Positions 1,028 to 23,784 are shown, numbered from the stretch's first letter. The stretch: DNA of 64,000 bases from an uncultured Candidatus Saccharibacteria bacterium (GCA_964404795.1 CAYOLI010000001.1:140137-204136), one strand, 5' to 3'. Made by a program: numbers and translations. Notes: generated by a model not told the origin, from the letters alone.

Positions 1028-1076
1028 TATGATATACGTATATTCTAAATTATAATTGTATACGACCATCAATACT

Positions 1077-1877
1077 ATGAAGCATTTAGTATCAAAACAA
1101 AATCGTATTCTTCTCACAGAGTTAGTTCGCACTGACTTTAAGCTACGATATCAGGGTTCAGTATTAGGGTATACTTGGTCTCTTCTTCGTCCACTACTCC
1201 TTTTTGCAATACTGTACATCGTATTCGTAAAGTTCTTAAGAATCGGTGGGGACATTCCTCATTTTCCTATATATCTATTGCTTGGTATTGTACTTTGGAA
1301 TTTCTTGTCAGAAGTGACTAGCCAGAGTCTCTCTTCAATAGTGGGGAGGGGCGATCTTATAAGAAAGATCCGCATTCCTAGGTGGATTATAGTGTTATCT
1401 GCTAGCGTGTCAGCATTGATTAATCTTGGCCTAAATCTATTGGTCGTTTTAGCATTTATGTTCTTCAATAAGATTGATTTTCTGGAGACCAGTATTTGGT
1501 TTCCGCTGATTCTACTTCAAATCTATATTCTGGGCCTTGGCTTATCCTTGATATTGGCTACCGCCTTTGTCAAGTATAGAGACGTTAGCTATATATGGGA
1601 GGTTGTTTTACAAGCTGGCTTTTATGTTACGCCAATTCTATATCCATTAACACTTATTACAAACATTACATATCAGAAACTGCTTTTGATTAATCCTATG
1701 GCACAAGCAATCCAAGATGCACGCTATGTTTTGGTTACTCATTCGACTCTAACTGTTGGAACAGTATTCAAAGATGTAGTCTATTGGACAGTACCTATTG
1801 GGATTTGCCTTGCTTTTCTGTTGGTTGGCATTCTTTACTTTAGAAAAGAAGCAAAAAATTTTGCAGAGGATTTATAA
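1077..1877 (+). CDS. ABC-2 type polysaccharide/teichoic-acid export permease (Wzm/TagG-like)
   Basis: LVRTDFKLRYQGSVLGYTWSLLRPLL signature of ABC-2 glycan exporters and about 6 TM segments. ATG 1077, with an alternative TTG at 1056. The stop lies 1 nt before the ATPase start. Confidence 0.8.
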   Translation: MKHLVSKQNRILLTELVRTDFKLRYQGSVLGYTWSLLRPLLLFAILYIVFVKFLRIGGDIPHFPIYLLLGIVLWNFLSEVTSQSLSSIVGRGDLIRKIRIPRWIIVLSASVSALINLGLNLLVVLAFMFFNKIDFLETSIWFPLILLQIYILGLGLSLILATAFVKYRDVSYIWEVVLQAGFYVTPILYPLTLITNITYQKLLLINPMAQAIQDARYVLVTHSTLTVGTVFKDVVYWTVPIGICLAFLLVGILYFRKEAKNFAEDL

Positions 1878-1878
1878 T

Positions 1879-3072
1879 ATGGACGACGAAGTAGCAATCA
1901 AAGTAGATTCTGTCAGTAAATCGTTTAAGCTACCCCATGAGAGGCAGAGATCCATAAAAAGTATTTTTATCGGTATGTTTAGTGGCAAAAAGACTTATGA
2001 AGAACATTCGGTACTGAAGGAAATATCTTTTGAAATAAAAAAAGGTGATTTTTTTGGGATTGTGGGGCGAAACGGAAGCGGAAAAAGTACATTGTTGAAA
2101 TTACTTGCAGGTATTTACAGTCCTGATCAAGGGGAAATTCAAATCAACGGAAGCTTAACTCCTTTTATTGAGCTTGGTGTTGGATTTAACCCCGAACTTA
2201 CTGGACGAGAAAATGTGTTTCTTAACGGTGCATTACTTGGGTTTAGTAGAAGTGAGATAGAAAAGATATATACAACTATCGTAAAGTTTGCAGAACTCGA
2301 AAAATTTATGGACCAAAAGCTTAAGAACTATTCTTCGGGTATGCAAGTACGTTTGGCCTTTTCGATAGCGATTAGAGCAAAGACAGATATATTATTGATT
2401 GACGAAGTATTAGCCGTTGGAGATGCTGCCTTCCAGAAGAAGTGTTTTGATTTTTTTAGTTCTTTTAAAGGTAAAACAACTGTGGTGTTTGTCACTCACG
2501 ACATGGACGCTGTAAAGCGTTTTTGTAATAAAGTGCTTGTTGTTGATCGCTCAAGATCCATTGGTGTATACAGCCCCAAAGAGGGGGCTTACGAGTATGA
2601 GAAAATAATGGATAAGGTAATCAATGATGACAAGCATCAAGACAATCAAGATATTGGAAGTAAGCAAGCAATAATTAAGAAGGTTAACCTATCAGGAGGG
2701 CATAATAGAATATATGAACTCGGTGAAGATATTGATCTTACATTTGAAATTGAGTGTCTAGACGAAACAATTATTGGAAATCAACTTGTAGTCGGAGTAG
2801 GGTTTTGCGATGATAGAGGTGTTAATATAATCGGACCCAATTCAAAAGGACGGTGTAGAATAATAGCAAAAGAGCATGTAGAGGTTGGTTTTTCCCTCAA
2901 GAGAAGTCCTTTTTCAAAGGGTAATATTTCAATAAATGTTGGATTATTTAGCGAAGATTTGCAGGACACCTATCATTTTTTGTTTAACGCAATAGAGATT
3001 AAGGCAGTCAGTGGTTTTGATAGTGGCGGTATAATTACGTATGAAGATGTAAAGTGGACAGCAAAAAAATGA
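1879..3072 (+). CDS. Polysaccharide export ABC ATPase (Wzt/TagH-like) with a C-terminal extension
   Basis: Start at MDDEVAIKVDSVSKSF (ATG 1879). Walker A is GRNGSGKST, signature YSSGMQVRL, Walker B LLIDEV. About 130 aa follow the NBD (nt ~2690-3072), in the position of the Wzt carbohydrate-binding domain. Confidence 0.85.
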   Translation: MDDEVAIKVDSVSKSFKLPHERQRSIKSIFIGMFSGKKTYEEHSVLKEISFEIKKGDFFGIVGRNGSGKSTLLKLLAGIYSPDQGEIQINGSLTPFIELGVGFNPELTGRENVFLNGALLGFSRSEIEKIYTTIVKFAELEKFMDQKLKNYSSGMQVRLAFSIAIRAKTDILLIDEVLAVGDAAFQKKCFDFFSSFKGKTTVVFVTHDMDAVKRFCNKVLVVDRSRSIGVYSPKEGAYEYEKIMDKVINDDKHQDNQDIGSKQAIIKKVNLSGGHNRIYELGEDIDLTFEIECLDETIIGNQLVVGVGFCDDRGVNIIGPNSKGRCRIIAKEHVEVGFSLKRSPFSKGNISINVGLFSEDLQDTYHFLFNAIEIKAVSGFDSGGIITYEDVKWTAKK

Positions 3073-3944
3073 TTCCAGAATTTGATTTTAGAGTATATCG
3101 TAGCGAAGAGAAGCCAAAACCGTTTAGGGATTATCTATATTTTGATAATCTAATCATTAAGCGTGGTAAGCTTGGCGGGTTTTGCCCTATTTGTGGCGCA
3201 ACAACCCTGTTCGAGCTACAAGCTCCAATCGTAAGAGAGGATTTGAGTTGTCGGAACTGTCGATCGTTTAATAGAATTCGACAACTAATGATTGGGCTTG
3301 CATGGGCAAGAGGTGTAAAAATCAAGTTCAATACTAATTTGAGGGATATTTTTGCTACATTCAAGAGCCCTACCAGGATCTTATTATTGGAGGCGGTAAC
3401 ACCAATTGCCGCTATGTTTGAATATTATGCAGCACAATCAAAAAAGGTTGAGCTGTATAAAACTGAATATATTTCAGGATCTCTAAAATCAGGAGAACAA
3501 AAAGAAGATATTATGCATTTTGATATCTTAAAGAGTGGTTTTGATGATGAGTTTTTTGATATTATTGTGCACGCTGATGTGTTTGAGCATGTTAGCGATG
3601 CTCCAAGAGCAGAGAGGGAACAATATCGGTTGCTCAAAAAAAATGGCTTTGCAATATATACCGCCCCAACTAAGGATGAGCTCAACAATGATGATATAAG
3701 GACTAGATTACATAAGGATGGTTCTCTTAATAAAATAAAAAGTGCGATTTACCATGGAGACCCTGCTCCAAGTGACCTTGGCGAAGCGGGTAGCATTGTT
3801 TTTAGGTTTTTTTCCTACAACGACATCAGAAAGAGATACTTAGCCCTAGGTGCGGATTATAGTTGTTTGAAAATTTATGCCCCAGGTTTTGGTATTATAG
3901 GGCAGAACAACCACGTACATTATGTTAAAAAACCTAAGAAATAA
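3069..3944 (+). CDS. Zn-ribbon plus methyltransferase-like protein (paralog 1)
   Basis: ATGA overlap with the Wzt stop. CPICG...CRNCRS four-Cys ribbon. DIIVHADVFEHVSDAP resembles class I MTase motif IV/V, but motif I is glycine-less (ILLLEAVTP). Roughly 40% identity by eye to ORF 6159..7034. Confidence 0.55.
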   Translation: MIPEFDFRVYRSEEKPKPFRDYLYFDNLIIKRGKLGGFCPICGATTLFELQAPIVREDLSCRNCRSFNRIRQLMIGLAWARGVKIKFNTNLRDIFATFKSPTRILLLEAVTPIAAMFEYYAAQSKKVELYKTEYISGSLKSGEQKEDIMHFDILKSGFDDEFFDIIVHADVFEHVSDAPRAEREQYRLLKKNGFAIYTAPTKDELNNDDIRTRLHKDGSLNKIKSAIYHGDPAPSDLGEAGSIVFRFFSYNDIRKRYLALGADYSCLKIYAPGFGIIGQNNHVHYVKKPKK

Positions 3945-5145
3945 ATTGATCAAATATATCCTTAACTTGATTACTAAAAGCAGTACTGTTAAATCGTTCA
4001 GCTCTTTTAGTGACAGTTTTGCTTAATTGGTCTGAACTGCTGCTGTCCATTTCTGCGACTTTATTTGTATATTTTATTAGTTCATCTTGGTTATTCCAAA
4101 GATAACCAGTTTTGCCTTGAATAACAGACTCTTTCTGGCCGGCGGAATTTATAACTACTGGTATGGCGCCCGCCGACATGGCTTCTACAGTTGTAATACC
4201 AAAATGTTCTTGCTTTTCTGGGTATTTGTCTATATCAGAACCGTAACCTGTTGCATGCCAGTAGATAGATGCCTGATTATATAGATACTTCAACTCATTG
4301 AAGCCACAATCGAAATGGAATACCACAGGATAGTTCTTTGCCATATTCATCAACGATACGATGTAAATAGCTCCACTCTTGCTTTTTTCAACTGTGCCCG
4401 CAAAGTGCAACTCCCACCCCTGCTTGTGCATTTTTTTCATTTTAATGAATTCTTCAAGCAAAAAATCTTGTCGTTTGTGGTGGTTATTCTCAAGATTTTC
4501 GAAAAAACGCCCAACACTGAGTATAATTTTTTCTTTCTTAATGTTTTGAGAAAGCATGGAGTCACAAATTGGGTATAAGATTTTACTATTAAGTCCCCAG
4601 AATTTTTTAACATACTTTTGGGTATAAAGGGAGTTCGCCGTAATAAGGTCGTAAGTATCGACTGAGTGCCGTTTGCTCTGGTAAAGAGTATATTTGTATA
4701 ATATATGCAAAATTGAACGATAACCTTTCTTCAAAAGATTTTTGGTGACTTCCTTTTCAAGTTTCTGGGGGAACATACACATATAAACGCCAGTCCTGCC
4801 GGGATTTGGTAGATTACTGTGAAAGCAGTTATTAATAAACAAATCATAGTTCTTTGATTTTAGCTTTCTGTAGAGCCAGAGTTCTTCGGTATAGTTCTTT
4901 AAACTTCTAGGAATAGGTAAGCGCCTTATTACCTTAAGAATAGGAGCATTCATCTTGATAATATTTAATTTTACTCTCGAAAGATCTATATCAAAATATG
5001 CTGCCGAATCTTCAAGGTCAATCTTTCTATGTATGACAATGCTCACTCGATGATCCTTCGAAAGTTCTGACGCCAGTGCGAGGCAAACTTTTTCGCCACC
5101 ACCTTTTGTGTCTAAATAAGGATTATAAATACAAATGTTTTTCAA
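3934..5145 (-). CDS. GT4-family (GT-B) glycosyltransferase
   Basis: The C-terminal EHFGITTVEAMSAGAIPVV motif matches the E-x7-E region of GT4. Start placed at TTG 5145, preceded by GAAGGAGGA, with a TTGA overlap onto the upstream GT2 stop. Confidence 0.8.
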   Translation of the reverse strand: MKNICIYNPYLDTKGGGEKVCLALASELSKDHRVSIVIHRKIDLEDSAAYFDIDLSRVKLNIIKMNAPILKVIRRLPIPRSLKNYTEELWLYRKLKSKNYDLFINNCFHSNLPNPGRTGVYMCMFPQKLEKEVTKNLLKKGYRSILHILYKYTLYQSKRHSVDTYDLITANSLYTQKYVKKFWGLNSKILYPICDSMLSQNIKKEKIILSVGRFFENLENNHHKRQDFLLEEFIKMKKMHKQGWELHFAGTVEKSKSGAIYIVSLMNMAKNYPVVFHFDCGFNELKYLYNQASIYWHATGYGSDIDKYPEKQEHFGITTVEAMSAGAIPVVINSAGQKESVIQGKTGYLWNNQDELIKYTNKVAEMDSSSSDQLSKTVTKRAERFNSTAFSNQVKDIFDQFIS

Positions 5146-6113
5146 AGTTTTTCCTCCTTCAATATCCCACATCTCTTAGCGAGAGCATAAGGTGTCAGGC
5201 ATACTGCGGCCCATATCATTTTCTGGCTAAGTAAGAATTCTTTTAAAGCTTGTTTTTTACCGTAATGTGCGCCTAGAGATAGGTAAATATTCTTAATGCG
5301 TAAGAGCAAATGATCTGCCAGAGTATGTTTCCAGGCCTTTGCCCACGGAATGAATTTGCCATTCTTTGTAAGAATGAGGATACGGTTTCTTCCTACGAAG
5401 TGGTTGAACAATGGAGACCCCTCCTTGCTTGAGCCAGTATGTTCATGATAAGCAATTGCCTGGGGTGCATAATAAAAGCTAAACCCTTTTTTCTGTCCTC
5501 GCCAGGATAAATCACCATCTTCGAAATACATAAAAAAACGAGCATCAAACATACCGACTGTGCTCAGAAATTCTCTGGTAAACAGCACGCTTGCACCACA
5601 AATCGCTGATATCTCGCAGACCTTATCATATTTTCCGTCGTCTTTCTCGTTAGCCCCTATTTCGTATATCGGCCAAGCACTGTTTATGTCCAGTCGCGAT
5701 CCTGCGTTATTGATGTAGCCAGGATTATTCTTGAATAGGATCTTGGGGTTAATTGCTGCGGCATCATTTTCTATAGCTGTAGAGACCATTTCTGTAATCA
5801 TTGATTTGTGCATCTCTAAATCGTTATTAACAACCAAGATAAATTGTCCAGTTGCCTGATGTACGCCACGGTTGTTTCCCCCGGCGTAGCCATAATTTTT
5901 GTCATTCTTAACTAGCTTAATGTTGGGGTATTTGTTGGCATATTCTCTCTCAGTGTACGCTAGTGAGTCATCAGATGAGTTGTTATCGATAAATAAAAGC
6001 TCGAGGGCATCCTTCGGGTAATCTTGTTGAAGATAACTTTTCATAAACTGGTCAATAAATCTCTTCCCATTCCAATTTAAAACCAGGACGGAAACTTTTG
6101 GTTTTTTCGACAT
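5142..6113 (-). CDS. Family 2 glycosyltransferase
   Basis: KVSVLVLNWNG, LLFIDNNSSDDS, YAGGNNRG and YFEDGDLSWR are classical GT2 (rhamnosyl/galactosyl-transferase-like) motifs. Confidence 0.85.
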   Translation of the reverse strand: MSKKPKVSVLVLNWNGKRFIDQFMKSYLQQDYPKDALELLFIDNNSSDDSLAYTEREYANKYPNIKLVKNDKNYGYAGGNNRGVHQATGQFILVVNNDLEMHKSMITEMVSTAIENDAAAINPKILFKNNPGYINNAGSRLDINSAWPIYEIGANEKDDGKYDKVCEISAICGASVLFTREFLSTVGMFDARFFMYFEDGDLSWRGQKKGFSFYYAPQAIAYHEHTGSSKEGSPLFNHFVGRNRILILTKNGKFIPWAKAWKHTLADHLLLRIKNIYLSLGAHYGKKQALKEFLLSQKMIWAAVCLTPYALAKRCGILKEEKL

Positions 6114-6158
6114 ACTGAGTATTATAAACTACAAAGGGTTAACAAAGGGAGATACAAT

Positions 6159-7034
6159 TTGATTAACAAGAACCATATGATGAATCGACATCAGATTTTT
6201 TGTACAGAATCTGATAGACCTACGACTAATAACGAATTTTTACAAGAAGATAATCAAGCGATATTAAGAGGTGGGAAGTTTGGTCACTGTTTAGTTTGTG
6301 GGCTGGATGTATACTTTCAGATAAATCATCCTAACCTAAGAGAATCGTTGGTCTGTCCCGTCTGTAAGTCATATAATCGCCAGCGCCAATTAGTTGCTAC
6401 TATATCCCTCTCAATGTTTGGCGGTGTTTATGACCTTAAAGAGATACTACACAAACTAAAGGGCTCAAAGATACTAATGCTTGAAAGTGTCACTAATCTA
6501 GCAGAAGCGTTTAAGTATTACGGGAAAGGATTGGTCGAATTGCATACCACAGAGTACATTGCGGACACTATGGAATCTGGCGAAACCTCAAATGATGGTA
6601 TTGTGCACCTTAATATTCAAGACCCACACTTTTCTGAGAGTTACTTTGATGTCATTATCCATGCAGATGTCTTTGAGCACGTCAGTGACGCTCCAAAGGC
6701 AGAGGAACAGCAACTAAAACTCCTAAAGAAAAAAGGCAAAGTGTTCTATACAGCGCCATTTGTAGCCGAGCTAGACAAAGATGATGTGAGAGCGATGATC
6801 AAGAGAGGTAAGCTTGTTCATATGGGCGACCCCATTTATCACGGCGACCCATCTCCTAGGCAGGATGTGGACAATAACAAGGGTTGCCTTGTTTTTAGGA
6901 TATTTTCTTACCCCGAGCTTCTGCAAAGATCAAAATCTTTGGGAGCTAGTTTTAAATGTTACCATTTATATGCAGGGGGGCTGGGTATTATTGGTAATAA
7001 TGCATATGTTTTTGAAATCATTAAGGCCATATGA
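6159..7034 (+). CDS. Zn-ribbon plus methyltransferase-like protein (paralog 2)
   Basis: CLVCG...CPVCKS ribbon, DVIIHADVFEHVSDAPKAE, and a glycine-less motif I (ILMLESVTN). TTG 6159 sits 7 nt after GGGAGA. Confidence 0.55.
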   Translation: MINKNHMMNRHQIFCTESDRPTTNNEFLQEDNQAILRGGKFGHCLVCGLDVYFQINHPNLRESLVCPVCKSYNRQRQLVATISLSMFGGVYDLKEILHKLKGSKILMLESVTNLAEAFKYYGKGLVELHTTEYIADTMESGETSNDGIVHLNIQDPHFSESYFDVIIHADVFEHVSDAPKAEEQQLKLLKKKGKVFYTAPFVAELDKDDVRAMIKRGKLVHMGDPIYHGDPSPRQDVDNNKGCLVFRIFSYPELLQRSKSLGASFKCYHLYAGGLGIIGNNAYVFEIIKAI

Positions 7035-7039
7035 GCCAT

Positions 7040-8509
7040 TTATATCCAGTAGGATTGTAATATCAGGAGTTGCATAAAAGAAAGATTAGCGGTAGTTATA
7101 CCAATAATTAATATACTAGCTCTGAGGTTATTAGTAGTTTGCAGGATAGGCCTGGCTAGACCGCTAAAAATAACGATAAAGGGCAGTAACGGTATGAAAT
7201 AACGACCCTGTACTCCATTTACAAAATGGGCACCTTTGGAAGTTGTATAAAAGAGCATGGACAGTGTTATGCCAGCAAACGATACCCCCATAAGCAATAT
7301 GAGTAAAAGATGTAATCTTCTAGCAAAGATAATTCTCTTTTTCTCTGACATGCAATATGCAAGCAGTAGCACAAAGTACACGGACAAGGAATACCACACG
7401 GGGGGTTTAATATAGTAGGATGTGAATAGACCAAAGAAGCCCTGTGTAATAAAATTCGGGATTGCGTGCTCGCTATTTAGGTCGCTGACATAGGTATGGT
7501 AGAGTAGTTTAGCCGTGTAAGACGGGTATACTAAATTTTTGATATTGTCACTGGTGTCATTAGGATAAATTCCTACACTATTCACGGCAAGTCTGTTAGC
7601 TTGATGTACTCCGCGAGCAGAAACAGCAATATTCCAAGATGTTACAAGTAAAAAGGGTACAAGCAGGGTCAATGCTAGCCATCTAGCTCTGGAAGTCCCG
7701 CGTGCAAAGGCCTCTTTTGGTAGTAGCAATAAAATCAAGAAAAGGGGATAGTATACAATTTTACTCAGTGATACAAAAGTGACGGCACAAAAAATCAACA
7801 GTAATAGATTGACTCTATGCTTTCCGAATGTAGCGATGTAACGACGGTTGCTATAAATATAAATGTAGCAAGCGATAAATAGAATACAGAAACCCACGAT
7901 CAGTGCATCAATTGATGTAGATGCAGCTTCTTGGACGCACATTGGTAATAGTCCAATAATTGCAAAAAACCATTTTTTAGTTGGGGCAATGCGGATGGCA
8001 AGTGCTACCATCAATATAAAGCCACACAAGACCGTCATGCGAATTAAGTATAAAGTTGTTAACACTGATAGGTTTAGGATACGCGCAAGACCAATGGTTG
8101 TGGCCTGCAGTACGTATGAAATTGGTGAATATAACGCAGTATTGCTATAGCCCAATACAGATCTAGAGTCACTGTTAATGTGGATATTATTAACATCAGA
8201 TATTTTGGAATGTATATATGCTTTGTTGATTTTTTTGTTGGTAGCATTAAAATTATACATAGCATTCATCTCAATAAAGCTATTGGGAATGGCGCCACCA
8301 ACTTGTCCGTTTCCTATACTTTTTGTAAGCAATACGCCGTTTGATATCTCGTAAGCTCTTGCAGTATGAGCGATCTCATCATTAACAACCATAGGAGGTT
8401 GAGTGAATACAGATGTAAGCCCAAAGACTGTTGCCAATATTACGAATGTTATTAAAGGACTATCAGATAGAAATCGAATAATCCGCTCGCTCTTGCTCTT
8501 AATTGACAT
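7040..8509 (-). CDS. Polytopic membrane protein, DUF2142-like (candidate GT-C glycosyltransferase)
   Basis: About 12 TM segments. The first loop motif VNDEIAHTARAYEIS is the D-E-x-x-H pattern I associate with DUF2142. Start placed at ATG 8509 (MSIKSK), overlapping the upstream gene by 11 nt. Confidence 0.55.
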   Translation of the reverse strand: MSIKSKSERIIRFLSDSPLITFVILATVFGLTSVFTQPPMVVNDEIAHTARAYEISNGVLLTKSIGNGQVGGAIPNSFIEMNAMYNFNATNKKINKAYIHSKISDVNNIHINSDSRSVLGYSNTALYSPISYVLQATTIGLARILNLSVLTTLYLIRMTVLCGFILMVALAIRIAPTKKWFFAIIGLLPMCVQEAASTSIDALIVGFCILFIACYIYIYSNRRYIATFGKHRVNLLLLIFCAVTFVSLSKIVYYPLFLILLLLPKEAFARGTSRARWLALTLLVPFLLVTSWNIAVSARGVHQANRLAVNSVGIYPNDTSDNIKNLVYPSYTAKLLYHTYVSDLNSEHAIPNFITQGFFGLFTSYYIKPPVWYSLSVYFVLLLAYCMSEKKRIIFARRLHLLLILLMGVSFAGITLSMLFYTTSKGAHFVNGVQGRYFIPLLPFIVIFSGLARPILQTTNNLRASILIIGITTANLSFMQLLILQSYWI

Positions 8510-9690
8510 AGGTGTATAATATAGGTCTTTCACCAGACATAGTTGCAACTGATTCAGAGACTAATGCAAACTGTGTAGCATACGCACCAGGTGTAGAGGG
8601 TGCTTTATACCAGAATTCGAAAGTAGCATTCTGGCCTGGATTTACCATATCTTCAATCTGTGCAGTTGGACGAAAACAACTTATCCAGCTTGTGTCGCAA
8701 AAAAGACTTGGGGTAGACGCCGCAACGGCTAACCTCACTGGGCCTACTCCAGACCTCATCCAAGCAACATTTCCGTTATTTCTAAATTTAATCTGAATGA
8801 AAACCTTGTTACCAGCTAACATCTGGTTGTGACTTGTTTCTTGTGTCATCGAAGCATCAGTAAAGGTTCTGACTTGACTTGCGTTGGTAGCGTAGATTCG
8901 AGGTGTTACACGAGTATAAATTATTGGTTCCTCACCGTCCATTCCAGAAACTGTCTCTGCAAGTATTGCAAATCTCGTAGCATAGTCACCAGGTGTAGAG
9001 GGTGCTTTATACCAGAATTCGAAAGTTGCATATCCTCCAAGGCCTACCTCAGCTTCTTTCATATTGGCTGGCCTAGCGCAGTTTATCCAACTTAGATCAC
9101 AAAAGTAGCTATTGTTTGCCGTTGCAAGTCTAACTGCACCGGAGCCATAGTTCTTCCACACAACGTTACCGTTATTACGGAATTTCATTTGAATGAATAC
9201 CTTATCATTAGGCGACAGAGTATTAGCATTGATCTGTTGACCCATCGAAGCATCAGTAAATACTCGGACCTGACTATTGTTATTGGCATATAACGGGGGG
9301 TTAACGTAAGTATAAAGCATGGGTGCATCACCAATAATATTTGTAATCATCTCTGAGACTAATGCAAACTGTGTAGCATACGCACCAGGTGTAGAGGGTG
9401 CTTTATACCAGAATTCGAAAGTTGCATATCCTCCGGGTCCAACAGAACTTTCCTTCATATCTACAACACGCGAGCAGCTTATCCACCCCGTGTCACAGAA
9501 GGGGTTGCCTGCTGATGTAGAAAGTCTTACAGCTCCCAAGCCATAGTTTGTCCAGATGGCATCTCCGTTATTTCTAAATTTAATCTGAATGAAAACCTTG
9601 TTACCAGCTAACATCTGGTTGTGACTTGTTTCTTGTGTCATCGAAGCATCAGTAAAGGTTCTGACTTGACTTGCGTTGGTAGCGTAGAAG
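8499..9690 (-). repeat. Three in-frame tandem coding repeats (396-bp period) with perfect DNA blocks
   Basis: 8772..8896 is identical to 9564..9688 (125 bp). 8557..8624 is identical to 9355..9422 (68 bp). 8987..9038 is identical to 9383..9434 (52 bp). Confidence 0.9.
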
Positions 9691-10556
9691 GCAGTAGTAG
9701 TTCCAAAATATTCAGAGAACATGCGCCAAAAATTTCTATTACCATATGCGCTACAGCCGTCTCCAGTACCGTATAGATTATTTAGAGCTGCAGCATTCGG
9801 CTGGTAGGGGGTGTAGTTATAGAGTCCGGCAGTTGCTTGATTCACTATATATATATTTGATCCACCACAATTGATATTCGGATTGTACTGTACATAGTTA
9901 TTACGATCTTTACGGTAATTGTAGTTGCTGGCATCACGTTCGTATTTTTTGTAAATGCGAGCCGCATTGTATACTTGATTAAAGAAGCCATAGTATTCGG
10001 AATCACAAGGTGCTGTATCGGGGCATCCAAAACCTGTAGCACTCCGGTATTGAATTGTCCATGGCCAGGCATCCGTTAGTAGCCCTTGTTCTTTCTGTAA
10101 TAATACAAGAAGAACTTTGGGGCTGACGCCGCAAGCTTGGGCAACATCGTATATTATTTGAGAACTATTTTTAAAGCCACCATAGTAGGTATTGCATAAA
10201 GCAGATTCAGAATTCCTGTTTGGAGTATTTTCCGTATAGTCCTTTAAGCATGTAAAAGGAGGATAATAACCTCTTGTTGCGCTGTACTGAGCTCTTGTAG
10301 TGGATCCACTATATATAGCAGATCCATTTGTGTCACAAGAAGGTACTTTTACATTCATAAATGTTTGGATCTCTTGTTGCGTCATTGAATATTTATTAAA
10401 GAACACTGTATCATCCGCTATTCTGGCCGCATTAAAATCGCCACCAGACAGAGCATTTGCTGTATGCGACATAGATAAGGAAGCAGCAATAAAAAGGAAG
10501 CCAGAAATCGTAAGAATGGTTATAAATGATTTTTGGGCCAAAACTTTGAGAATCAT
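8499..10556 (-). CDS. Secreted protein: N-terminal hydrolase-like domain plus three ~132-aa Ig-like (NBR1-like) repeats
   Basis: Signal peptide ends ...SHTANA. VSPKVLLVLLQKEQGLL resembles cell-wall glycosidase-associated domains. Three tandem modules each carry ...VFIQ(I/M)KFRNNG...ATFEFWYKAPSTPG. Confidence 0.6.
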   Translation of the reverse strand: MILKVLAQKSFITILTISGFLFIAASLSMSHTANALSGGDFNAARIADDTVFFNKYSMTQQEIQTFMNVKVPSCDTNGSAIYSGSTTRAQYSATRGYYPPFTCLKDYTENTPNRNSESALCNTYYGGFKNSSQIIYDVAQACGVSPKVLLVLLQKEQGLLTDAWPWTIQYRSATGFGCPDTAPCDSEYYGFFNQVYNAARIYKKYERDASNYNYRKDRNNYVQYNPNINCGGSNIYIVNQATAGLYNYTPYQPNAAALNNLYGTGDGCSAYGNRNFWRMFSEYFGTTTAFYATNASQVRTFTDASMTQETSHNQMLAGNKVFIQIKFRNNGDAIWTNYGLGAVRLSTSAGNPFCDTGWISCSRVVDMKESSVGPGGYATFEFWYKAPSTPGAYATQFALVSEMITNIIGDAPMLYTYVNPPLYANNNSQVRVFTDASMGQQINANTLSPNDKVFIQMKFRNNGNVVWKNYGSGAVRLATANNSYFCDLSWINCARPANMKEAEVGLGGYATFEFWYKAPSTPGDYATRFAILAETVSGMDGEEPIIYTRVTPRIYATNASQVRTFTDASMTQETSHNQMLAGNKVFIQIKFRNNGNVAWMRSGVGPVRLAVAASTPSLFCDTSWISCFRPTAQIEDMVNPGQNATFEFWYKAPSTPGAYATQFALVSESVATMSGERPILYTYVN

Positions 10557-12855: not shown

Positions 12856-13554
12856 TTGAGTAAAGAGGAGTATCTGTATACAGGACAGACAAACCTAGAG
12901 GTTATGCAGAGTGCTGTTAATTATAACAAGTACTTGCATGATCTTGTTAAACGAGAGATAAGAACTACTACCAAAAAAAACGTAAAGGTTTTAGATTTTG
13001 GCGCAGGGATTGGTACCTATGCAGACATCTTGAAAGATAGAGGAATAAAAGTTGACTGCGTGGAAGTTGACCCAAACGGAGTGTCTGTCTTGAAGAAAAA
13101 AGGATACAAGGTCTACTCGTCAGCCAAAGAAATAAAAAGAAAATATGATATAGTGTACTCTTTTAATGTACTTGAGCATGTCGAAGATGATACAGCTTTA
13201 TTAAGAGAAATGAAGGAAGTAATTAAAGACGATGGGTCGATCATTATCTATGTACCCGCTTTTAACTCTATATTGACTCAGCTCGACGTACTCGTTGAGC
13301 ATTTGAGAAGATATAGATCGAGCGATATGACTTACTTAGCGATAAGAAGTAAGCTTAAGATAAAACGACTGCAATATTGCGACCCGATAGGGTTTATATT
13401 GGCGTATATCTATAAGCTGATTGGCGGTAGTGGCAATCTTAACCCAAAGACAATTTGGATTTTTGATAGAATTTTGTTTCCATTTAGTCGAGCATTAGAA
13501 TTGGTTACAAGAAAGTTATTTGGAAAAAATATTTTAGTTGTATATAAAAAATAA
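12856..13554 (+). CDS. Class I SAM-dependent methyltransferase
   Basis: Canonical motif I VLDFGAGIGTY and FNVLEHVEDD. TTG 12856 follows AGGAGA. Confidence 0.75.
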   Translation: MSKEEYLYTGQTNLEVMQSAVNYNKYLHDLVKREIRTTTKKNVKVLDFGAGIGTYADILKDRGIKVDCVEVDPNGVSVLKKKGYKVYSSAKEIKRKYDIVYSFNVLEHVEDDTALLREMKEVIKDDGSIIIYVPAFNSILTQLDVLVEHLRRYRSSDMTYLAIRSKLKIKRLQYCDPIGFILAYIYKLIGGSGNLNPKTIWIFDRILFPFSRALELVTRKLFGKNILVVYKK

Positions 13555-13563
13555 TTGTTTATT

Positions 13564-14820: not shown

Positions 14821-15678
14821 TTACCCTAAACTTGTTAGATATTTTCCATAGCCGGATTTTTTTAGGGGTTTGGCGAGATTAGCTAATTGTTCTTCGTTGA
14901 TGAAACCTTGTTCGTAGGCAATCAGTTCTGGAGATCCGATAATTTGCCCCGTCCTTTTTTGTAATACACGGACATAGTCGGTAGCATCGGATAAGCTATC
15001 TATTGTTCCGGTGTCTAACCATACGTCTCCATCGTCTAGCGTTGTAACCTGGAGTTTGCCACGTTTTAAGTACTCTTCATTAACAGATGTAATTTCGAGC
15101 TCGCCTCGTTCGCTTGGCTGAATATTTTTAGCAATTTCCACTACATCGTTATCATAGAAATATAGGCCAACCACAGCATAGTTTGATTTGGGAGCTGTGG
15201 GCTTTTCTTCAATAGATTTTGCCTGCATATTTTTGTCGAACTCGACAACTCCATAGCGCTGGGGGTCGGAAACCTGATAGGCAAATACAACTCCCCCGTT
15301 TGGATCGGTGCAATTTTTGAGAGATTCATCAAGTTCGGCGCCATGAAATATGTTGTCGCCCAGCACAAGTGCTACTTTATCGCTTCCAATGAATTCTTCT
15401 CCTAACATAAATGCCTGAGCAAGGCCATCGGGCGACGGTTGCTGGACATAATTTAAGTTGATGCCCCATTGTGAACCGTCGCCCAAGAGGTGTTGAAAAG
15501 ATGCTTGATCATGTGGTGTAGTAATAATTAGTATATCTTTTATGCCTGCCTGCATGAGGGTACTTAGAGGGTAATAGACCATTGGCTTGTCGTAAATTGG
15601 TATAAGCTGTTTTGATATACCTTTTGTAATCGGATGCAATCTTGTGCCGCTACCTCCCGCTAGAATAATACCTTTCAT
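14821..15678 (-). CDS. rfbA: Glucose-1-phosphate thymidylyltransferase
   Basis: [23 protein letters not shown] and YDKPM.YYPLS are canonical RmlA motifs. Confidence 0.95.
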
Positions 15679-15769
15679 GTTGTTAGGCCCTCCAGGTGTA
15701 GTCGATCATGTCACTTAACATATTTTTCTGCATATTACTTCCAAGAGTATACTATTTTGCTATCTTAAA

Positions 15770-15803
15770 CTCCAACCGTTTATGTTGCCATAAACGGTTG
15801 GAG
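15770..15803. repeat. Perfect 14-bp inverted repeat (hairpin, 6-nt loop)
   Basis: ctccaaccgtttat-gttgcc-ataaacggttggag, read directly. Confidence 0.85.
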
Positions 15804-15882
15804 TAAAGAAACCCTGAAAAATATAAGACTTTAATCTGTGCGATTTAAGCGGTATCTCGATTTTTGAAGAATCGTATCATTT

Positions 15883-15923
15883 ACATGCTCTATTCGTATC
15901 AGCATGATACGAATAGAGCATGT
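15883..15923 (-). terminator. Perfect 19-bp hairpin 20 nt downstream of the DUF2283-like gene
   Basis: (a)catgctctattcgtatca-gca-tgatacgaatagagcatg(t). There is no clear U-tract, so terminator function is uncertain. Confidence 0.4.
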
Positions 15924-15942
15924 GGGCAAGAGGATGTATCTG

Positions 15943-16158
15943 TTATGGCGCAGGGTTTAGCTCGATAGGTATACTTGTGGGCTTTGTGGGAAGCTGGACA
16001 TTTTTTGAAGCAGACAACACCTCAACACCGATGATTTGGCCTGAGTCAGAATAGTCAACTAACAAGTCCTTGGTAATTTTTTTACTAGATTTGTAAGGCG
16101 CCTTGTCGTTTAAGGTTATGTACATGGCATCTACATTTTCGTCATAAGTTATCTTCAT
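15943..16158 (-). CDS. DUF2283-like small protein (putative antitoxin)
   Basis: MKITYDENVDAMYITL...LVDYSDSGQIIGVEVLSASK matches the DUF2283 pattern as I remember it. TAATG 1-nt overlap with the upstream gene. Confidence 0.6.
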   Translation of the reverse strand: MKITYDENVDAMYITLNDKAPYKSSKKITKDLLVDYSDSGQIIGVEVLSASKNVQLPTKPTSIPIELNPAP

Positions 16159-16382
16159 TATTTCTCCAAAAAATATTCTGTTATAACAATAACTATATTA
16201 TCCTCTTTTTTGCATACAACCTCAAGGACCTTATCATCATATATTTTCTGTAACACAATTCTATCTTTGAAAGACTCAGAATTGTGGTCGGGAGACTGTA
16301 CCGTATTAATGACCATATCTTTGGTAATGTTCTTTCGGCTTTTAAGTCGGGCTAAGGCGTGTTCGGAAAATTCAATTTTCAT
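16158..16382 (-). CDS. DUF4258-like small protein (putative toxin)
   Basis: The FSEHALARLKSR.I....V pattern and ~74 aa size fit DUF4258. The start overlaps the rfbD end by 11 nt. Confidence 0.55.
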   Translation of the reverse strand: MKIEFSEHALARLKSRKNITKDMVINTVQSPDHNSESFKDRIVLQKIYDDKVLEVVCKKEDNIVIVITEYFLEK

Positions 16383-17223
16383 TTGTTAAATATTCTTTGA
16401 GGTTTTCTTGCCAGTTGCTTGAAATAAATCCCACCGACTGGATTTTTGATAAATCCAGAGTGCTTTGTAGTGGACGAGGGGCAATGCCTGGCTTGTCTTG
16501 GTAGTATTCTTTGGTTGTTGTGTCGGTTACAGTAAGGTCGTCTCTACCTAGGATATTAAAAATTTCTCTGGTAATATCTGCCCAGCTAGCAGAAGGTCCT
16601 TCATTAGAAATATTATAAGTCCCATAGGCCACTTGGTTGGTCAGTAGATGATCTATTGCACGCACTAACTCGCTGGTAAATGTGAGTCGCCCTATTTGAT
16701 CGCTAACTACGGTTGGAGATATATTTTTGTTAGCTAGGTCAACCATTGTGCGAACAAAGTTATCTCCCCTTCCTACAACCCAGGAGGTTCTTAAGATGTA
16801 ATGTTTGGGAGCCATTTGTATTGCAATGTCTCCAGACGCTTTACTGCAACCATAAACATTTAGAGGGCTGAACGGTTCGTTTTCCAGATGTATTTTTTTC
16901 GTACCATCAAAAACATAGTCGGTAGATATATGCACGATTACAATATTATTTTTTTGTGCTATTGCTGACAAATAAGAGGGTGCAACAGCGTTAACCTGCC
17001 ACGCAGAGATGCGCCCGTTTGGTGTCTCTGCGCCGTCTACATTGGTGTAGGCAGCAGCATTTAGTATGTGTGTTACGTTAGACCAATCGTAGTTTGAGAC
17101 GGAATTCTTAGACGTTATGTCTAACTCGCCAATATCGACTTTTTGAGCAGAGGGGTATTTTAGCTGTAGCTCTTTGCCGAGTTGTCCATTTGCTCCAATA
17201 ATCAGTATTTTCGATTCGTCCAT
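16372..17223 (-). CDS. rfbD: dTDP-4-dehydrorhamnose reductase
   Basis: ILIIGANGQLG Rossmann motif, YGCSKASGD (YxxxK), and position in the rml context. Confidence 0.9.
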   Translation of the reverse strand: MDESKILIIGANGQLGKELQLKYPSAQKVDIGELDITSKNSVSNYDWSNVTHILNAAAYTNVDGAETPNGRISAWQVNAVAPSYLSAIAQKNNIVIVHISTDYVFDGTKKIHLENEPFSPLNVYGCSKASGDIAIQMAPKHYILRTSWVVGRGDNFVRTMVDLANKNISPTVVSDQIGRLTFTSELVRAIDHLLTNQVAYGTYNISNEGPSASWADITREIFNILGRDDLTVTDTTTKEYYQDKPGIAPRPLQSTLDLSKIQSVGFISSNWQENLKEYLTNEN

Positions 17224-18794
<1,571 letters not shown>

Positions 18795-21245: not shown

Positions 21246-21334
21246 AGCAATAAGTATAACTAACTATATCGAAATGGTTTGCATATAAAGGGTAAGAAAA
21301 CAGGAGTTTTTGCTGTTATAATCAGCTTGTAGGT

Positions 21335-22765
21335 ATGAGAAATAACGCAAATCTTTTTTATTCGATTTTGCTAGTAATTGGTGACTTTTTGGCAATTTTG
21401 GCAGCTTTTTCGCTAGCGTACATTTTAAGGGTTAAGTTTGACGATAGGCCTTTGATTGTTCAAATCTCGGCGTATTCGTACATAACGGCGTTTTTGTTTG
21501 CCCTGCCATTTTGGTTGGTTAGCCATGCGTCGCTAGGGCTATACACTAGAAACGTTTTCGAAAATCGCTTTCGAGAAATTGGCCGGTTGATACTGGGTTC
21601 GTTTATTGGGGTGTTGATTGTGGTTGGGTATGATTTTGTTACCGATGGCAATCTGTTCCCAGCTCGACTTGTACCGGTTTATGGTTTGTTTTTGAGCTTT
21701 GGTTTTCTAATAGTTTTTAGAGTAATAGCGAGGATTTGTAGGCGAACACTTTTTGCTTACGGCGTAGGCATTGACAATGTATTGATTATTGGCAATCCCA
21801 AAAGTTCGCATGGGGTAGTAGACGAACTAATTGATACTAAATTTAGTGGTTACAATATTGTTGGAACGGTTGGGTTTAAGATAGAAGATAGTCAAATTGA
21901 TGCCTTTGACGATTTTGAGATGGCTGTTAAGAAACTAAAAAATCGAAGCATAAATACTATTGTCCAGACGAAATTATATTCGTCTGAAAATCAGAATACA
22001 GATATTTTGAGCTACGCCCAAAAACACCACATTGCCTATAAATTCATTCCGGGAAGTGATGGTGTTTTTGCTGGCAATATCGAGGTTGAACTTTTCAGGG
22101 GAGTGCCAGTAGTGAGTGTTCATCAAACGGCCCTTGTTGGATGGGGAAGAATTTTGAAACGTTTATTTGACATAGCTTTGAGTTTTCTACTGATAATAAT
22201 ACTCTCTCCTTTAATGTTGCTGGCAGGCGTTATTATAAAAATTGCTAACCCCCGCGAGCCATTGATGTTTAAGCAAAAACGACTGACCATGCACGATAAA
22301 AAATTTGTTGTTTACAAGTTTCGCTCGCAACAAAAACGTTTTGATGGAACTACTCCCGAACAGGCCTTTAGAAAATTAGGACAAGAGGGTTTGTCGGCGA
22401 AATATCGTAGTAATGGCGATATGCTTTTGGATGACCCTAGGTTGATAAGAGCCGGCAAATTTATTAGATCAACTAGCTTGGATGAGCTGCCGCAGTTGAT
22501 AAACGTACTAAAGGGGGATATTAGTTTGGTTGGCCCTAGAGCGTTGATTCCACAGGAGCTAGAAAAGTATCAAGGTAAACACCAAATACTAAGTGTTAAA
22601 TCGGGCCTGACTGGTCTTGCACAGGTTTCTGGCAGAAGAAATATTAGCTTTGAGGAGCGACGCAAGCTGGATGTTTACTACGTTCAAAACTGGAGTTTTT
22701 GGTTGGATATTAGTATTTTACTTCGAACTTTCAGAGCTGTTATTAACGGCATTGGCGCAAAATAA
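21335..22765 (+). CDS. Polyprenyl-phosphate hexose-1-phosphate transferase (WbaP/large PGT type)
   Basis: N-terminal TM bundle, central Rossmann-like region, and a C-terminal bacterial sugar transferase domain (KRLFDI....PLMFKQKR...KFRS...DELPQL.NVLKGD.SLVGPR). Confidence 0.85.
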   Translation: MRNNANLFYSILLVIGDFLAILAAFSLAYILRVKFDDRPLIVQISAYSYITAFLFALPFWLVSHASLGLYTRNVFENRFREIGRLILGSFIGVLIVVGYDFVTDGNLFPARLVPVYGLFLSFGFLIVFRVIARICRRTLFAYGVGIDNVLIIGNPKSSHGVVDELIDTKFSGYNIVGTVGFKIEDSQIDAFDDFEMAVKKLKNRSINTIVQTKLYSSENQNTDILSYAQKHHIAYKFIPGSDGVFAGNIEVELFRGVPVVSVHQTALVGWGRILKRLFDIALSFLLIIILSPLMLLAGVIIKIANPREPLMFKQKRLTMHDKKFVVYKFRSQQKRFDGTTPEQAFRKLGQEGLSAKYRSNGDMLLDDPRLIRAGKFIRSTSLDELPQLINVLKGDISLVGPRALIPQELEKYQGKHQILSVKSGLTGLAQVSGRRNISFEERRKLDVYYVQNWSFWLDISILLRTFRAVINGIGAK

Positions 22766-22826
22766 GCGGTAAAGTTTAAAAAATGCTATAGTATGTTTGT
22801 TGATACGAACATAAACCAAACAAACA

Positions 22827-23781: not shown

Positions 23782-23784
23782 CTT

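What the first reader, a model, noticed from the sequence alone, without database searches (positions are those of the whole stretch)
3069..7034. Paired Zn-ribbon methyltransferase-like paralogs with a glycine-less SAM motif next to a Wzt that carries a C-terminal extension
Seen: ORFs 3069..3944 and 6159..7034 are paralogs. Both carry an N-terminal CxxC...CxxC ribbon and share the D(I/V)I(V/I)HADVFEHVSDAP block. They bracket an oppositely oriented GT4-GT2 pair. The position of class I MTase motif I (hh[D/E]hGxGxG) reads ILLLEAVTP and ILMLESVTN, with no glycines. The first paralog overlaps the Wzt stop (ATGA), and Wzt has about 130 aa beyond its NBD. Established: in ABC-dependent O-antigen systems such as E. 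coli O9a, a terminator enzyme (WbdD methyl/kinase) caps the chain, and the Wzt C-terminal domain recognises the cap. Inference: these paralogs could be chain-capping or length-controlling enzymes with a non-canonical cofactor pocket, or catalytically dead scaffolds.
Basis: partly seen in the sequence, partly recalled or inferred. Interest (0 to 1): 0.55.

Follow-up and report, generated by a model that had tools for sequence, protein, structure and literature searches.

The report
Glycine-less zinc-ribbon sugar methyltransferase pair
Two duplicated genes beside a sugar-polymer export pump most likely encode working methyltransferases from a large, unstudied family that has replaced the usual glycine-rich cofactor loop with its own conserved motif, and they probably methylate (perhaps cap) a rhamnose-containing surface polymer.

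Summary
ORFs 3069-3944 and 6159-7034 are 291-aa paralogs (44% identity, E 2e-68), each with a CxxC...CxxC ribbon. Where class I methyltransferases carry GxGxG they read LLLEAVTP and LMLESVTN. They flank a GT4-GT2 pair. Paralog A overlaps the stop codon of a Wzt whose C-terminus matches Pfam Wzt_C.

The glycine-less loop is not degeneration. It is the conserved hallmark, E-Q-(V/T)-T-P, of a large uncharacterised zinc-ribbon methyltransferase family (679 representatives at E<1e-30). The residues that normally hold the ribose and adenine of SAM are retained, so "dead scaffold" is unlikely.

An AlphaFold model (pLDDT 94) has a class I methyltransferase fold and matches only SAM methyltransferases in the PDB, distantly. 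Glycine-less members lie near Wzm/Wzt in 12 of 23 loci with at least 8 kb of context, against 0 of 26 for a sister subfamily. Eleven of 13 of those Wzt carry Wzt_C. The module is repeatedly fused as GT2-GT4-ZnMT.

The island also encodes dTDP-rhamnose synthesis and a priming transferase, and the host looks like a Patescibacterium. Glycan methylation is well supported. A chain-terminating cap read by Wzt is plausible but unproven. I rate this a new variant of a known kind, of moderate interest.

The parts
1056..1877 (+). wzm, the ABC-2 permease of the glycan exporter
   Evidence: Pfam ABC2_membrane, E 2.6e-15. Its stop TAA at 1875-1877 lies one base before the wzt ATG.
1879..3072 (+). wzt, the ABC ATPase with a C-terminal carbohydrate-binding-type domain (Wzt_C, about nt 2647-3012)
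   Evidence: ABC_tran at 85.3 bits and Wzt_C PF14524 at 38.9 bits (gathering score 30.4). Best NCBIfam matches are TagH and Wzt/RfbE-type exporters. The stop overlaps the ATG of paralog A.
3069..3944 (+). ZnMT_A, a zinc-ribbon class I methyltransferase-like protein (291 aa). The ribbon cysteines lie within nt 3183-3260 and the glycine-less motif I loop E108-P112 is at nt 3390-3404.
   Evidence: Methyltransf_11, E 3.4e-9. AlphaFold pLDDT 94.2, pTM 0.92. Foldseek returns only SAM methyltransferases. Orthologs of 54-69% identity lie in syntenic loci L001-L003.
3934..5172 (-). GT4-family glycosyltransferase
   Evidence: Glycos_transf_1 E 8e-17 and Glyco_trans_1_4 E 1e-11. Syntenic in L001-L003.
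5142..6113 (-). GT2-family glycosyltransferase
   Evidence: Glycos_transf_2, E 2e-21. Syntenic in L001 and L003.
6159..7034 (+). ZnMT_B, the paralog of ZnMT_A (291 aa from the TTG, or 285 aa from the ATG at 6177). The glycine-less loop E109-N113 is at nt 6483-6497.
   Evidence: 44% identical to A. Methyltransf_11 at 25.1 bits, gathering score 21.2. An ortholog of 52% identity sits in the same position in L003. B forms a separate orthogroup from A.
12856..13554 (+). Third methyltransferase of the island, canonical, with VLDFGAGIG. It is an alternative candidate for the cap.
   Evidence: Methyltransf_23 E 2e-16 and Methyltransf_11 E 1e-11 over the full profile.
14821..18773 (-). rmlA, rmlD, rmlC and rmlB (dTDP-L-rhamnose synthesis). 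They point to a rhamnose-containing polymer.
   Evidence: NTP_transferase E 2e-74, RmlD_sub_bind E 4.5e-63, dTDP_sugar_isom E 6e-42, GDP_Man_Dehyd/Epimerase E 2e-75.
21335..22765 (+). Polyprenyl-phosphate glycosylphosphotransferase, the likely initiating enzyme of the same island
   Evidence: NCBIfam TIGR03025 EPS_sugtrans at 340.5 bits, cut-off 295.6.

Best explanation
ZnMT_A and ZnMT_B are most likely active SAM-dependent sugar O-methyltransferases. They belong to a large, uncharacterised family built from an N-terminal four-cysteine zinc ribbon, a class I Rossmann-type methyltransferase core and a C-terminal lid.

In their subfamily the glycine-rich motif I is replaced by a shorter conserved loop, h-Y-h-x-E-Q-(V/T)-T-P. 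The residues that normally grip the ribose (E133 at the end of beta2) and the adenine (D/N152 after beta3) are kept. I infer that the methionine end of SAM is held by this loop and the N-terminus of helix alphaA, perhaps with help from the invariant E57, R69 and R71 that follow the ribbon.

The two enzymes work in an ABC-transporter-dependent pathway. A priming transferase starts a lipid-linked, rhamnose-containing surface glycan. The adjacent GT2 and GT4 extend it. The two old paralogs, which form separate orthogroups, each add a methyl group at a different position or sugar. Wzm/Wzt then exports the polymer.

Because Wzt carries a Wzt_C module and A is translationally coupled to wzt, at least one of the methyl groups probably marks the non-reducing end. 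That would stop elongation and license export.

Shown here: the fold, the family, the motif conservation, the synteny and the fusions. Inferred: SAM use, the acceptor, and above all the capping role.
For: Fold and family:
- Both paralogs exceed the Pfam Methyltransf_11 gathering score.
- The AlphaFold model has pLDDT 94.2 and a beta1-loop-alphaA-beta2...beta7 topology.
- Foldseek against the PDB gives only class I SAM methyltransferases, including the sugar O-methyltransferases RebM and AtmM.
- A profile search of PDB sequences gives the same set.

Conservation of the loop:
- The family has 679 representatives at E<1e-30.
- Eighty-six of 157 full modules among the best 150 representatives have the glycine-less loop. 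Counting the 9 such modules from the first homolog search as well (95 in all), the loop has E in 94, T in 91, Q in 59 and P in 57.
- Within that subfamily E57, C61, C64, R69, R71, E108, E133, H150, E173, H174, H229 and P232 are invariant. T111, D152, D170, Y228 and G230 are at least 90% conserved.

Age of the duplication: A-A identity is 54-69%, B-B 50-52% and A-B 39-46%. L003 keeps the order A-GT4-GT2-B.

Genomic context:
- wzm-wzt(Wzt_C)-A-GT4-GT2 is syntenic in L001 and L002.
- Glycine-less members have a Wzt ATPase in 12 of 23 loci of at least 8 kb, against 0 of 26 for the ILESSARG subfamily (Fisher p 1.5e-5).
- Wzt_C is present in 8 of 10 such metagenome Wzt, plus the window, L001 and L002.
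- A ZnMT gene sits directly after or overlapping wzt in the window and in five other loci.

Fusions: [MTase]-GT2-GT4-ZnMT or GT4-ZnMT proteins occur in P0125, P0139, P0129, L114, L125, L140, L145 and L119.

Rest of the island: rmlABCD, a priming transferase, GtrA and BacA lie in the same island.

Literature: in every terminated O-polysaccharide system studied, Wzt carries a carbohydrate-binding module that reads the terminal residue (PMC11231755).
Against: - No member of this family has been characterised, and I found no paper on it.
- Sequence similarity to proven methyltransferases is confined to beta4-alphaD-beta5, about 45-60 residues. The mapping of motif I therefore rests on a predicted structure.
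- I had no model coordinates and no docking, so I could not inspect the pocket.
- The proteins lack the coiled-coil ruler found in every characterised terminator (PMC11231755).
- A canonical methyltransferase at 12856-13554 could supply the cap instead.
- L001 keeps A but has no B, so B is dispensable for export in at least one relative.
- About half of the glycine-less loci showed no Wzt within reach, and some nearby Wzt lack Wzt_C.
Confidence: 0.5

Rival explanations
1. A and B are active glycan methyltransferases, but they decorate internal repeat-unit sugars, as in O-methylated rhamnans. They do not make the terminal cap. Termination, if it occurs, comes from the canonical methyltransferase at 12856-13554 or from another enzyme, and the Wzt module reads that other feature.
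For: Two long-retained paralogs with distinct orthogroups fit two regiospecific decorations. L001 has lost B yet keeps Wzt_C. No coiled-coil ruler is present. A third methyltransferase is present. The giant fusion proteins often carry a canonical methyltransferase as well as the ZnMT module, so either one could be the terminator. In P. aeruginosa CPA, two partly redundant methyltransferases are needed for the polymer but do not behave like WbdD (PMC3560663).
Against: Paralog A is translationally coupled to wzt, and a ZnMT gene recurs directly after wzt in five other loci. Association with Wzt_C-bearing transporters is high, 11 of 13.
Confidence: 0.3
2. The glycine-less pocket does not bind SAM. 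These are methyltransferase-fold enzymes that use a different donor or chemistry. One precedent is the methyltransferase-like sheet topology of the GT137 Kdo-transferase terminator. SAM-dependent but non-methylating chemistry is another possibility.
For: The canonical E/DxGxGxG loop is absent. Only the beta4-beta5 region resembles methyltransferases at sequence level. Foldseek TM-scores are low, 0.25-0.41. A terminator with a methyltransferase-like sheet but glycosyltransferase activity has been reported (PMC11231755).
Against: The ribose-binding acidic residue after beta2 and the D/N after beta3 are conserved as in true SAM enzymes. The Pfam hit exceeds the curated cut-off. Sister subfamilies grade into more usual loops that keep one or two glycines. 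No Kdo or other unusual donor pathway is visible in the island.
Confidence: 0.07
3. One or both paralogs are catalytically dead scaffolds that organise the GT2-GT4 polymerase or dock it to Wzt.
For: The glycine-rich loop is lost. The module is fused to glycosyltransferase modules in other organisms, which could reflect a structural role.
Against: The replacement loop and about 20 other positions, typical of an active site, are invariant or nearly so across clusters that share only 25-30% identity. Dead enzymes normally show relaxed conservation at exactly these sites. Both paralogs keep all of them, apart from D152N in B, which is a common active variant.
Confidence: 0.05
4. The methyltransferases act on something other than the glycan, such as a protein, lipid or small molecule, and merely sit in the island.
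For: The ILESSARG sister subfamily is not near Wzm/Wzt at all, 0 of 26, so the family as a whole is not restricted to such loci.
Against: Synteny holds across organisms. Gene fusions with GT2 and GT4 occur. Plasmid homologs lie next to GH99-like, sulfotransferase and pyruvyltransferase glycan-modifying genes.
Confidence: 0.04

Closest known systems
WbdD of E. coli O8 (methyltransferase) and O9a (kinase plus methyltransferase), the chain terminators of ABC-transporter-dependent O-antigen synthesis
   Same: A class I methyltransferase acts in a Wzm/Wzt pathway whose Wzt carries a C-terminal carbohydrate-binding module. The proposed logic is the same: methylate the non-reducing end, stop elongation and license export (PMC3482155, PMC11231755).
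   Different: There is no kinase domain, no coiled-coil ruler and no C-terminal membrane helix. These proteins have a zinc ribbon and a glycine-less motif I. WbdD was not among the top 50 Foldseek hits. There are two paralogs rather than one enzyme.
PA5457 and PA5459 of the P. aeruginosa common polysaccharide antigen (D-rhamnan) locus
   Same: Two stand-alone methyltransferases sit next to two glycosyltransferases in a Wzm/Wzt rhamnan pathway. They lack interaction domains, are partly redundant, and the polymer is lost when both are deleted (PMC3560663).
   Different: That paper reports similarity to WbdD and does not mention a zinc ribbon or an unusual motif I.
RebM and AtmM (sugar 4'-O-methyltransferases) and other Methyltransf_11 enzymes such as phosphoethanolamine N-methyltransferases, MitM and YcgJ
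   Same: These are the best structural and profile matches. They share the beta4-alphaD-beta5 signature 'sFDxvxsxxvxxHvxd...LkpGG' and the overall Rossmann sheet.
   Different: They keep the GxGxG loop and have no zinc ribbon. TM-scores are only 0.21-0.41 and identity is 10-20%.
WsaE of Geobacillus stearothermophilus (S-layer rhamnan; methyltransferase fused to rhamnosyltransferases) and multimodule terminator-polymerases such as K. pneumoniae ORF6-O7 and WbbB
   Same: The fused relatives here, [MTase]-GT2-GT4-ZnMT, have the same 'polymerase plus modifying module in one protein' design described for ABC-dependent glycans (PMC11231755; the WsaE comparison is from my own knowledge).
   Different: In the window the modules are separate genes. 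Whether the ZnMT module or the canonical methyltransferase module is the terminator is unknown. I did not test the fusions for coiled-coil spacers.

Membership tests
Class I SAM-dependent methyltransferase (Pfam Methyltransf_11, PF08241) | Profile match above the curated gathering score | tested here: met
   A scores 37.7 bits and B 25.1 bits against a cut-off of 21.2. The match covers only profile positions about 29-94.
Class I SAM-dependent methyltransferase (Pfam Methyltransf_11, PF08241) | Rossmann-like seven-stranded sheet with the beta1-loop-alphaA nucleotide-binding turn | tested here: met
   AlphaFold model with pLDDT 94.2 and the expected order of strands and helices. Foldseek gives 204 PDB hits at E<=0.001, and the 50 best listed are class I methyltransferase-fold proteins. 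This rests on a predicted structure.
Class I SAM-dependent methyltransferase (Pfam Methyltransf_11, PF08241) | Glycine-rich motif I (E/D-x-G-x-G-x-G) | tested here: not met
   The loop reads E-A-V-T-P in A and E-S-V-T-N in B. The subfamily consensus is E-Q-(V/T)-T-P with no glycine.
Class I SAM-dependent methyltransferase (Pfam Methyltransf_11, PF08241) | Acidic residue at the end of beta2 (ribose) and D/N after beta3 (adenine) | tested here: met
   E133 is invariant. Position 152 is D in at least 90% of members and N in B. Both lie at the ends of the predicted beta2 and beta3.
Class I SAM-dependent methyltransferase (Pfam Methyltransf_11, PF08241) | Binds SAM and transfers a methyl group | not testable with these tools
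   This needs biochemistry or co-folding with the ligand.
WbdD-type chain terminator | Coiled-coil molecular ruler and membrane or polymerase docking region | tested here: not met
   Each protein is a compact 291-residue globule. The longest predicted helix is 13 residues.
WbdD-type chain terminator | Kinase domain (O9a type) | tested here: not met
   No kinase family appears in the Pfam or NCBIfam scans.
WbdD-type chain terminator | Modifies the non-reducing terminus and thereby stops elongation | not testable with these tools
   Only indirect support is available: coupling to wzt and co-occurrence with Wzt_C.
Wzt with a C-terminal carbohydrate-binding module (Pfam Wzt_C, PF14524) | Wzt_C profile match above the gathering score, C-terminal to the ABC ATPase domain | tested here: met
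   38.9 bits against a cut-off of 30.4, residues 258-379. The orthologs in L001 and L002 also match.
Wzt with a C-terminal carbohydrate-binding module (Pfam Wzt_C, PF14524) | Beta-sandwich fold like solved Wzt modules | tested here: inconclusive
   The single-sequence AlphaFold model failed, with pLDDT 32. There was no PDB sequence hit.
Zinc-ribbon methyltransferase family, glycine-less (EQVTP) subfamily, as defined here | Four ribbon cysteines, E57/R69/R71, the E-x-(V/T)-T-x loop, E133, H150, DVFEH and YHGxP | tested here: met
   All are present in A. All are present in B at the equivalent positions, with N for D152.

The most novel reading that the evidence does not exclude
The E-Q-(V/T)-T-P loop, together with the invariant Glu/Arg/Arg triad that follows the zinc ribbon, forms a previously undescribed way of holding the cofactor in a Rossmann methyltransferase. 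Alternatively it holds a donor other than SAM. On either version, this family would be a widespread, unrecognised class of stand-alone chain terminators for ABC-transporter-dependent glycans. They would work without a coiled-coil ruler, and they would include the first such system in Patescibacteria.
Probability: 0.12. Interest if true: 0.7.

Novelty: new variant of a known kind. Interest (0 to 1): 0.4.

Why it matters
Most surface-glycan loci that use a Wzt with a carbohydrate-binding module have no identified terminator. A large family that tracks those transporters and is repeatedly fused to polymerase modules is a concrete candidate to test.

For enzymologists, the family offers dozens of sequence clusters in which a class I methyltransferase fold has swapped the glycine-rich loop for a different, equally conserved motif and added a zinc ribbon. 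That makes it a natural experiment on how SAM can be bound.

For the biology of Patescibacteria, the 24-kb island points to a methylated, rhamnose-containing wall or surface polymer, which may matter for attachment to hosts.

None of this overturns current models. It extends them.

Tried and rejected
The single-sequence run was useless, with pLDDT 32. The fold of the Wzt C-terminal domain therefore stays untested.
- A phmmer search of the Wzt C-terminal 148 residues against PDB sequences found nothing.
- Profile-to-sequence and profile-to-profile comparisons with canonical methyltransferases align only beta4-beta5. They cannot place motif I.
- Model coordinates are not exposed to the sandbox. 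I could not inspect the pocket or superpose SAH.
- The genome-contig scan found no close relative (at most 33% identity) and mainly sampled other subfamilies.
- Cluster look-ups gave no organism names. Taxonomy rests on MurC relatives of about 60% identity.
- Two literature searches found no paper on this family.
- I rejected the 'dead scaffold' reading because of the conservation pattern.
- I rejected WbdD membership because the ruler and kinase are absent.
- I considered a Kdo-type cap like GT137 and judged it unlikely, since the island shows no Kdo pathway.
- I did not test the giant fusion proteins for coiled coils.

Full report
**1. Checking the observation**

The two ORFs are real. They are clear paralogs: 120 of 275 aligned residues are identical (44%), E 2e-68. 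Both have a CxxC...CxxC ribbon and the block D(I/V)I(V/I)HADVFEHVSDAP.

Between them, on the opposite strand, lie a GT4 (3934-5172) and a GT2 (5142-6113). Upstream are wzm (1056-1877) and wzt. The wzt ATG is at 1879, one base after the wzm stop. The wzt TGA (3070-3072) overlaps the ATG of paralog A (3069-3071).

Beyond its ATPase domain, Wzt has a stretch that matches Pfam Wzt_C above the curated cut-off, 38.9 against 30.4 bits. Every element of the description therefore holds. Start codons are slightly uncertain. A could start at a GTG at 3054. B could start at the TTG at 6159 or at an ATG six codons later.

**2. What the paralogs are**

Both pass the Pfam Methyltransf_11 threshold, but only over the second half of that profile. 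NCBIfam and PDB sequence searches likewise align only the beta4-alphaD-beta5 region.

I built a 64-sequence alignment and obtained a confident AlphaFold model of A (pLDDT 94.2, pTM 0.92). It has three parts:
- an N-terminal cap of about 100 residues that contains the ribbon;
- a Rossmann core with beta1 at 102-106, a loop at 107-111, alphaA from residue 112, beta2 at 127-133, beta3 at 148-150 and beta4 at 163-169;
- a C-terminal sheet extension.

Foldseek against the PDB returned only class I SAM methyltransferase-fold proteins (AprA MT2, MitM, CurJ and citrinin C-methyltransferases, YcgJ, RebM, AtmM, phosphoethanolamine methyltransferases). TM-scores were low, 0.21-0.41, and identity was 10-20%. 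The fold assignment is sound, but no close structure exists.

The position where motif I should sit is the beta1-alphaA loop. This mapping depends on the predicted structure.

**3. The glycine-less loop is a family hallmark, not decay**

The word-indexed search found only five close relatives (54-62% identity). All read R(I/V)LLLExVT(P/H).

A profile search found a large family of zinc-ribbon methyltransferases. The exhaustive search of 1.84 billion representatives gave 21,885 hits at E<=0.001 and 679 at E<=1e-30.

Aligning all retrieved modules to one HMM shows three main loop types:
- ILE(S/P)(S/C)(A/P)RG, with one glycine;
- (Y/W)NTE..G, usually with one glycine;
- a shorter loop, h-Y-h-x-E-Q-(V/T)-T-P, with none.

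The third type accounts for 86 of 157 full modules among the best 150 representatives. Counting the 9 such modules from the first search as well (95 in all), it has E in 94, T in 91, Q in 59 and P in 57.

Within a 50-sequence alignment of this subfamily, with pairwise identity often only 25-30%, the invariant positions are E57, C61, C64, R69, R71, E108, E133, H150, V171, E173, H174, L189, G193, P200, H229 and P232. C39, C42, T111, D152, D170, Y228 and G230 are at least 90% conserved.

E133 ends beta2 and residue 152 follows beta3. In class I methyltransferases these are the positions that hold the ribose hydroxyls and the adenine N6 (established knowledge). Retaining them, together with a replacement loop that is itself conserved, argues for a working cofactor site of unusual design and against dead scaffolds. 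That SAM is the ligand remains an inference.

**4. Two old orthogroups**

A-type proteins share 54-69% identity with each other. B-type proteins share 50-52%. A against B is 39-46%. Locus L003, from another organism, has the same order A-GT4-GT2-B, and its B is 52% identical to the window's B. L001 has A but not B. The duplication therefore predates these lineages, and both copies have usually been kept. That suggests two different jobs.

**5. Genomic context**

L001 and L002 repeat the order wzm-wzt(Wzt_C)-A-GT4-GT2, with A abutting wzt.

I collected 160 further loci from genome and metagenome scans. I classified each methyltransferase by loop type and searched the flanks with the window's own proteins. 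Among loci of at least 8 kb:

| Loop type | Loci with a Wzt-type ATPase | Other features |
|---|---|---|
| Glycine-less (EQVTP) | 12 of 23 | 7 of 23 have Rml genes |
| YNTE | 13 of 30 | |
| ILESSARG | 0 of 26 | |

The ILESSARG set serves as an internal control (Fisher p 1.5e-5 and 7e-5).

Sixteen of 23 neighbouring Wzt in the first set carry Wzt_C. Among glycine-less metagenome loci 8 of 10 do. With the window, L001 and L002 that makes 11 of 13.

Thirty-three of 38 methyltransferase-Wzt pairs are co-oriented. A ZnMT gene sits directly after or overlapping wzt in the window and in L001, L002, L007, L034 and L114.

Thirty-four of 95 glycine-less modules lie in proteins of at least 500 residues. 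The recurrent architectures are [canonical MTase]-GT2-GT4-ZnMT and GT4-ZnMT. These are the window's separate genes joined into one protein. Such fusions are classical evidence that the methyltransferase acts together with that glycosyltransferase pair.

Annotated plasmid homologs (Cereibacter, Aminobacter) are labelled only 'methyltransferase domain-containing protein'. They sit among GH99-like, ABC transporter, sulfotransferase and pyruvyltransferase genes.

**6. The island and the organism**

The same region encodes:
- two DUF2142 membrane proteins, a canonical methyltransferase (12856-13554) and a GtrB-like GT2;
- rmlA, rmlD, rmlC and rmlB;
- another GT4, a polyprenyl-phosphate glycosylphosphotransferase, GtrA and BacA.

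This is a roughly 24-kb surface-glycan island that makes dTDP-rhamnose. The window's MurC is about 60% identical to proteins named Candidatus Saccharimonadales or Patescibacteria group. Many housekeeping matches fall below the curated cut-offs. The host is probably a Patescibacterium. The polymer would then be a wall or surface glycan rather than a lipopolysaccharide O-antigen.

**7. Mechanism**

The best-supported reading is that A and B are sugar O-methyltransferases acting on the polymer built by the adjacent GT2 and GT4 in a Wzm/Wzt pathway. I put this at about 0.75.

Whether they cap the chain is less certain, about 0.4-0.45. In favour:
- In every studied terminated system, Wzt carries a carbohydrate-binding module that reads the terminal modification (PMC11231755).
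- This Wzt has such a module.
- A is translationally coupled to wzt.
- The family tracks Wzt_C-bearing transporters.

Against:
- All characterised terminators carry a coiled-coil ruler (PMC11231755), and these proteins do not.
- A third methyltransferase is available.
- B is missing from one relative.

The P. aeruginosa CPA rhamnan offers a functional parallel. Two stand-alone methyltransferases beside two glycosyltransferases are jointly required for the polymer yet do not behave like WbdD (PMC3560663). I could not test homology to those enzymes.

**8. Comparison with known families, and novelty**

These proteins work like glycan methyltransferases in ABC-dependent pathways. They are members of the class I methyltransferase superfamily by fold and by Pfam. 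They fail the glycine-rich-loop criterion and are not WbdD-like in architecture.

Annotation pipelines already call them methyltransferases. However, the zinc-ribbon family, its glycine-less motif and its link to Wzt_C transporters do not appear in the literature I could search.

I rate this a new variant of a known kind, interest about 0.4. It is a useful lead for terminator discovery and for understanding variant SAM pockets, but it is not a surprise that changes the field.

**9. Limits**

- I had no ligand docking, no model coordinates and no biochemistry.
- The fold of the Wzt C-terminal domain was not confirmed.
- The context statistics come from tblastn with the window's own proteins on a non-random sample of loci. 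The base rate of Wzt_C among all Wzt was not measured.

Noticed in passing
window 7040-8548 (-), 11192-12676 (-), 13555-14253 (+), 22827-23336 (+): Two DUF2142 polytopic membrane proteins (E about 1e-41), a short GtrB-like GT2 and a GtrA-family protein lie in the same island. Together they look like a three-component system that adds sugars to the glycan outside the cytoplasm.
   Followed up: partly
window 8499-10556 (-): A 685-aa secreted protein has three long internal repeats of about 115 residues, each ending in an Ig-like N_BRCA1_IG domain. The first and third repeats are almost identical in places (YATNASQVRTFTDASMTQETSHNQMLAGNKVFIQIKFRNNG). It sits between the two DUF2142 genes, and its function is unknown.
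   Followed up: no
window 12856-13554 (+): A third methyltransferase in the island has a fully canonical VLDFGAGIG motif and abuts the GtrB-like GT2. It is an alternative source of any methyl cap.
   Followed up: partly
window 14821-18773 (-) and 20139-24594: A complete rmlA/D/C/B set, an extra GT4, a WbaP/EPS-type priming phosphotransferase, GtrA and BacA/UppP extend the glycan island to about 24.6 kb.
   Followed up: partly
window 43162-49383 (+): A giant 2073-aa ORF has a Laminin_G_3 (concanavalin-like lectin) domain and an fn3/purple-acid-phosphatase-N domain. It may be a surface adhesin.
   Followed up: no
window 34020-35291 (-): MurC scores well below the NCBIfam equivalog cut-off (209 against 335 bits). 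Its nearest named relatives, at about 60% identity, are Saccharimonadales and Patescibacteria, which suggests a candidate-phyla-radiation host.
   Followed up: partly
L007 5946-6647 and 9923-10783; L114 5248-6072 and 5813-10843: Unrelated lineages (Aphanizomenon and a metagenome contig) also carry two different zinc-ribbon methyltransferase modules in one Wzm/Wzt locus, one of them overlapping the end of wzt. The 'pair of ZnMTs, one glued to wzt' layout has therefore arisen more than once.
   Followed up: partly
P0122 (1238 aa): One relative fuses two zinc-ribbon methyltransferase modules to a radical SAM plus SPASM domain. This unusual combination hints at further chemistry on the same substrate.
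   Followed up: no
L001 8071-8646: In the closest syntenic locus, the slot occupied by paralog B in the window instead holds a 191-aa protein with a type IV pilin-like N-terminus (FSVIEIFVATAIVAVIG).
   Followed up: no
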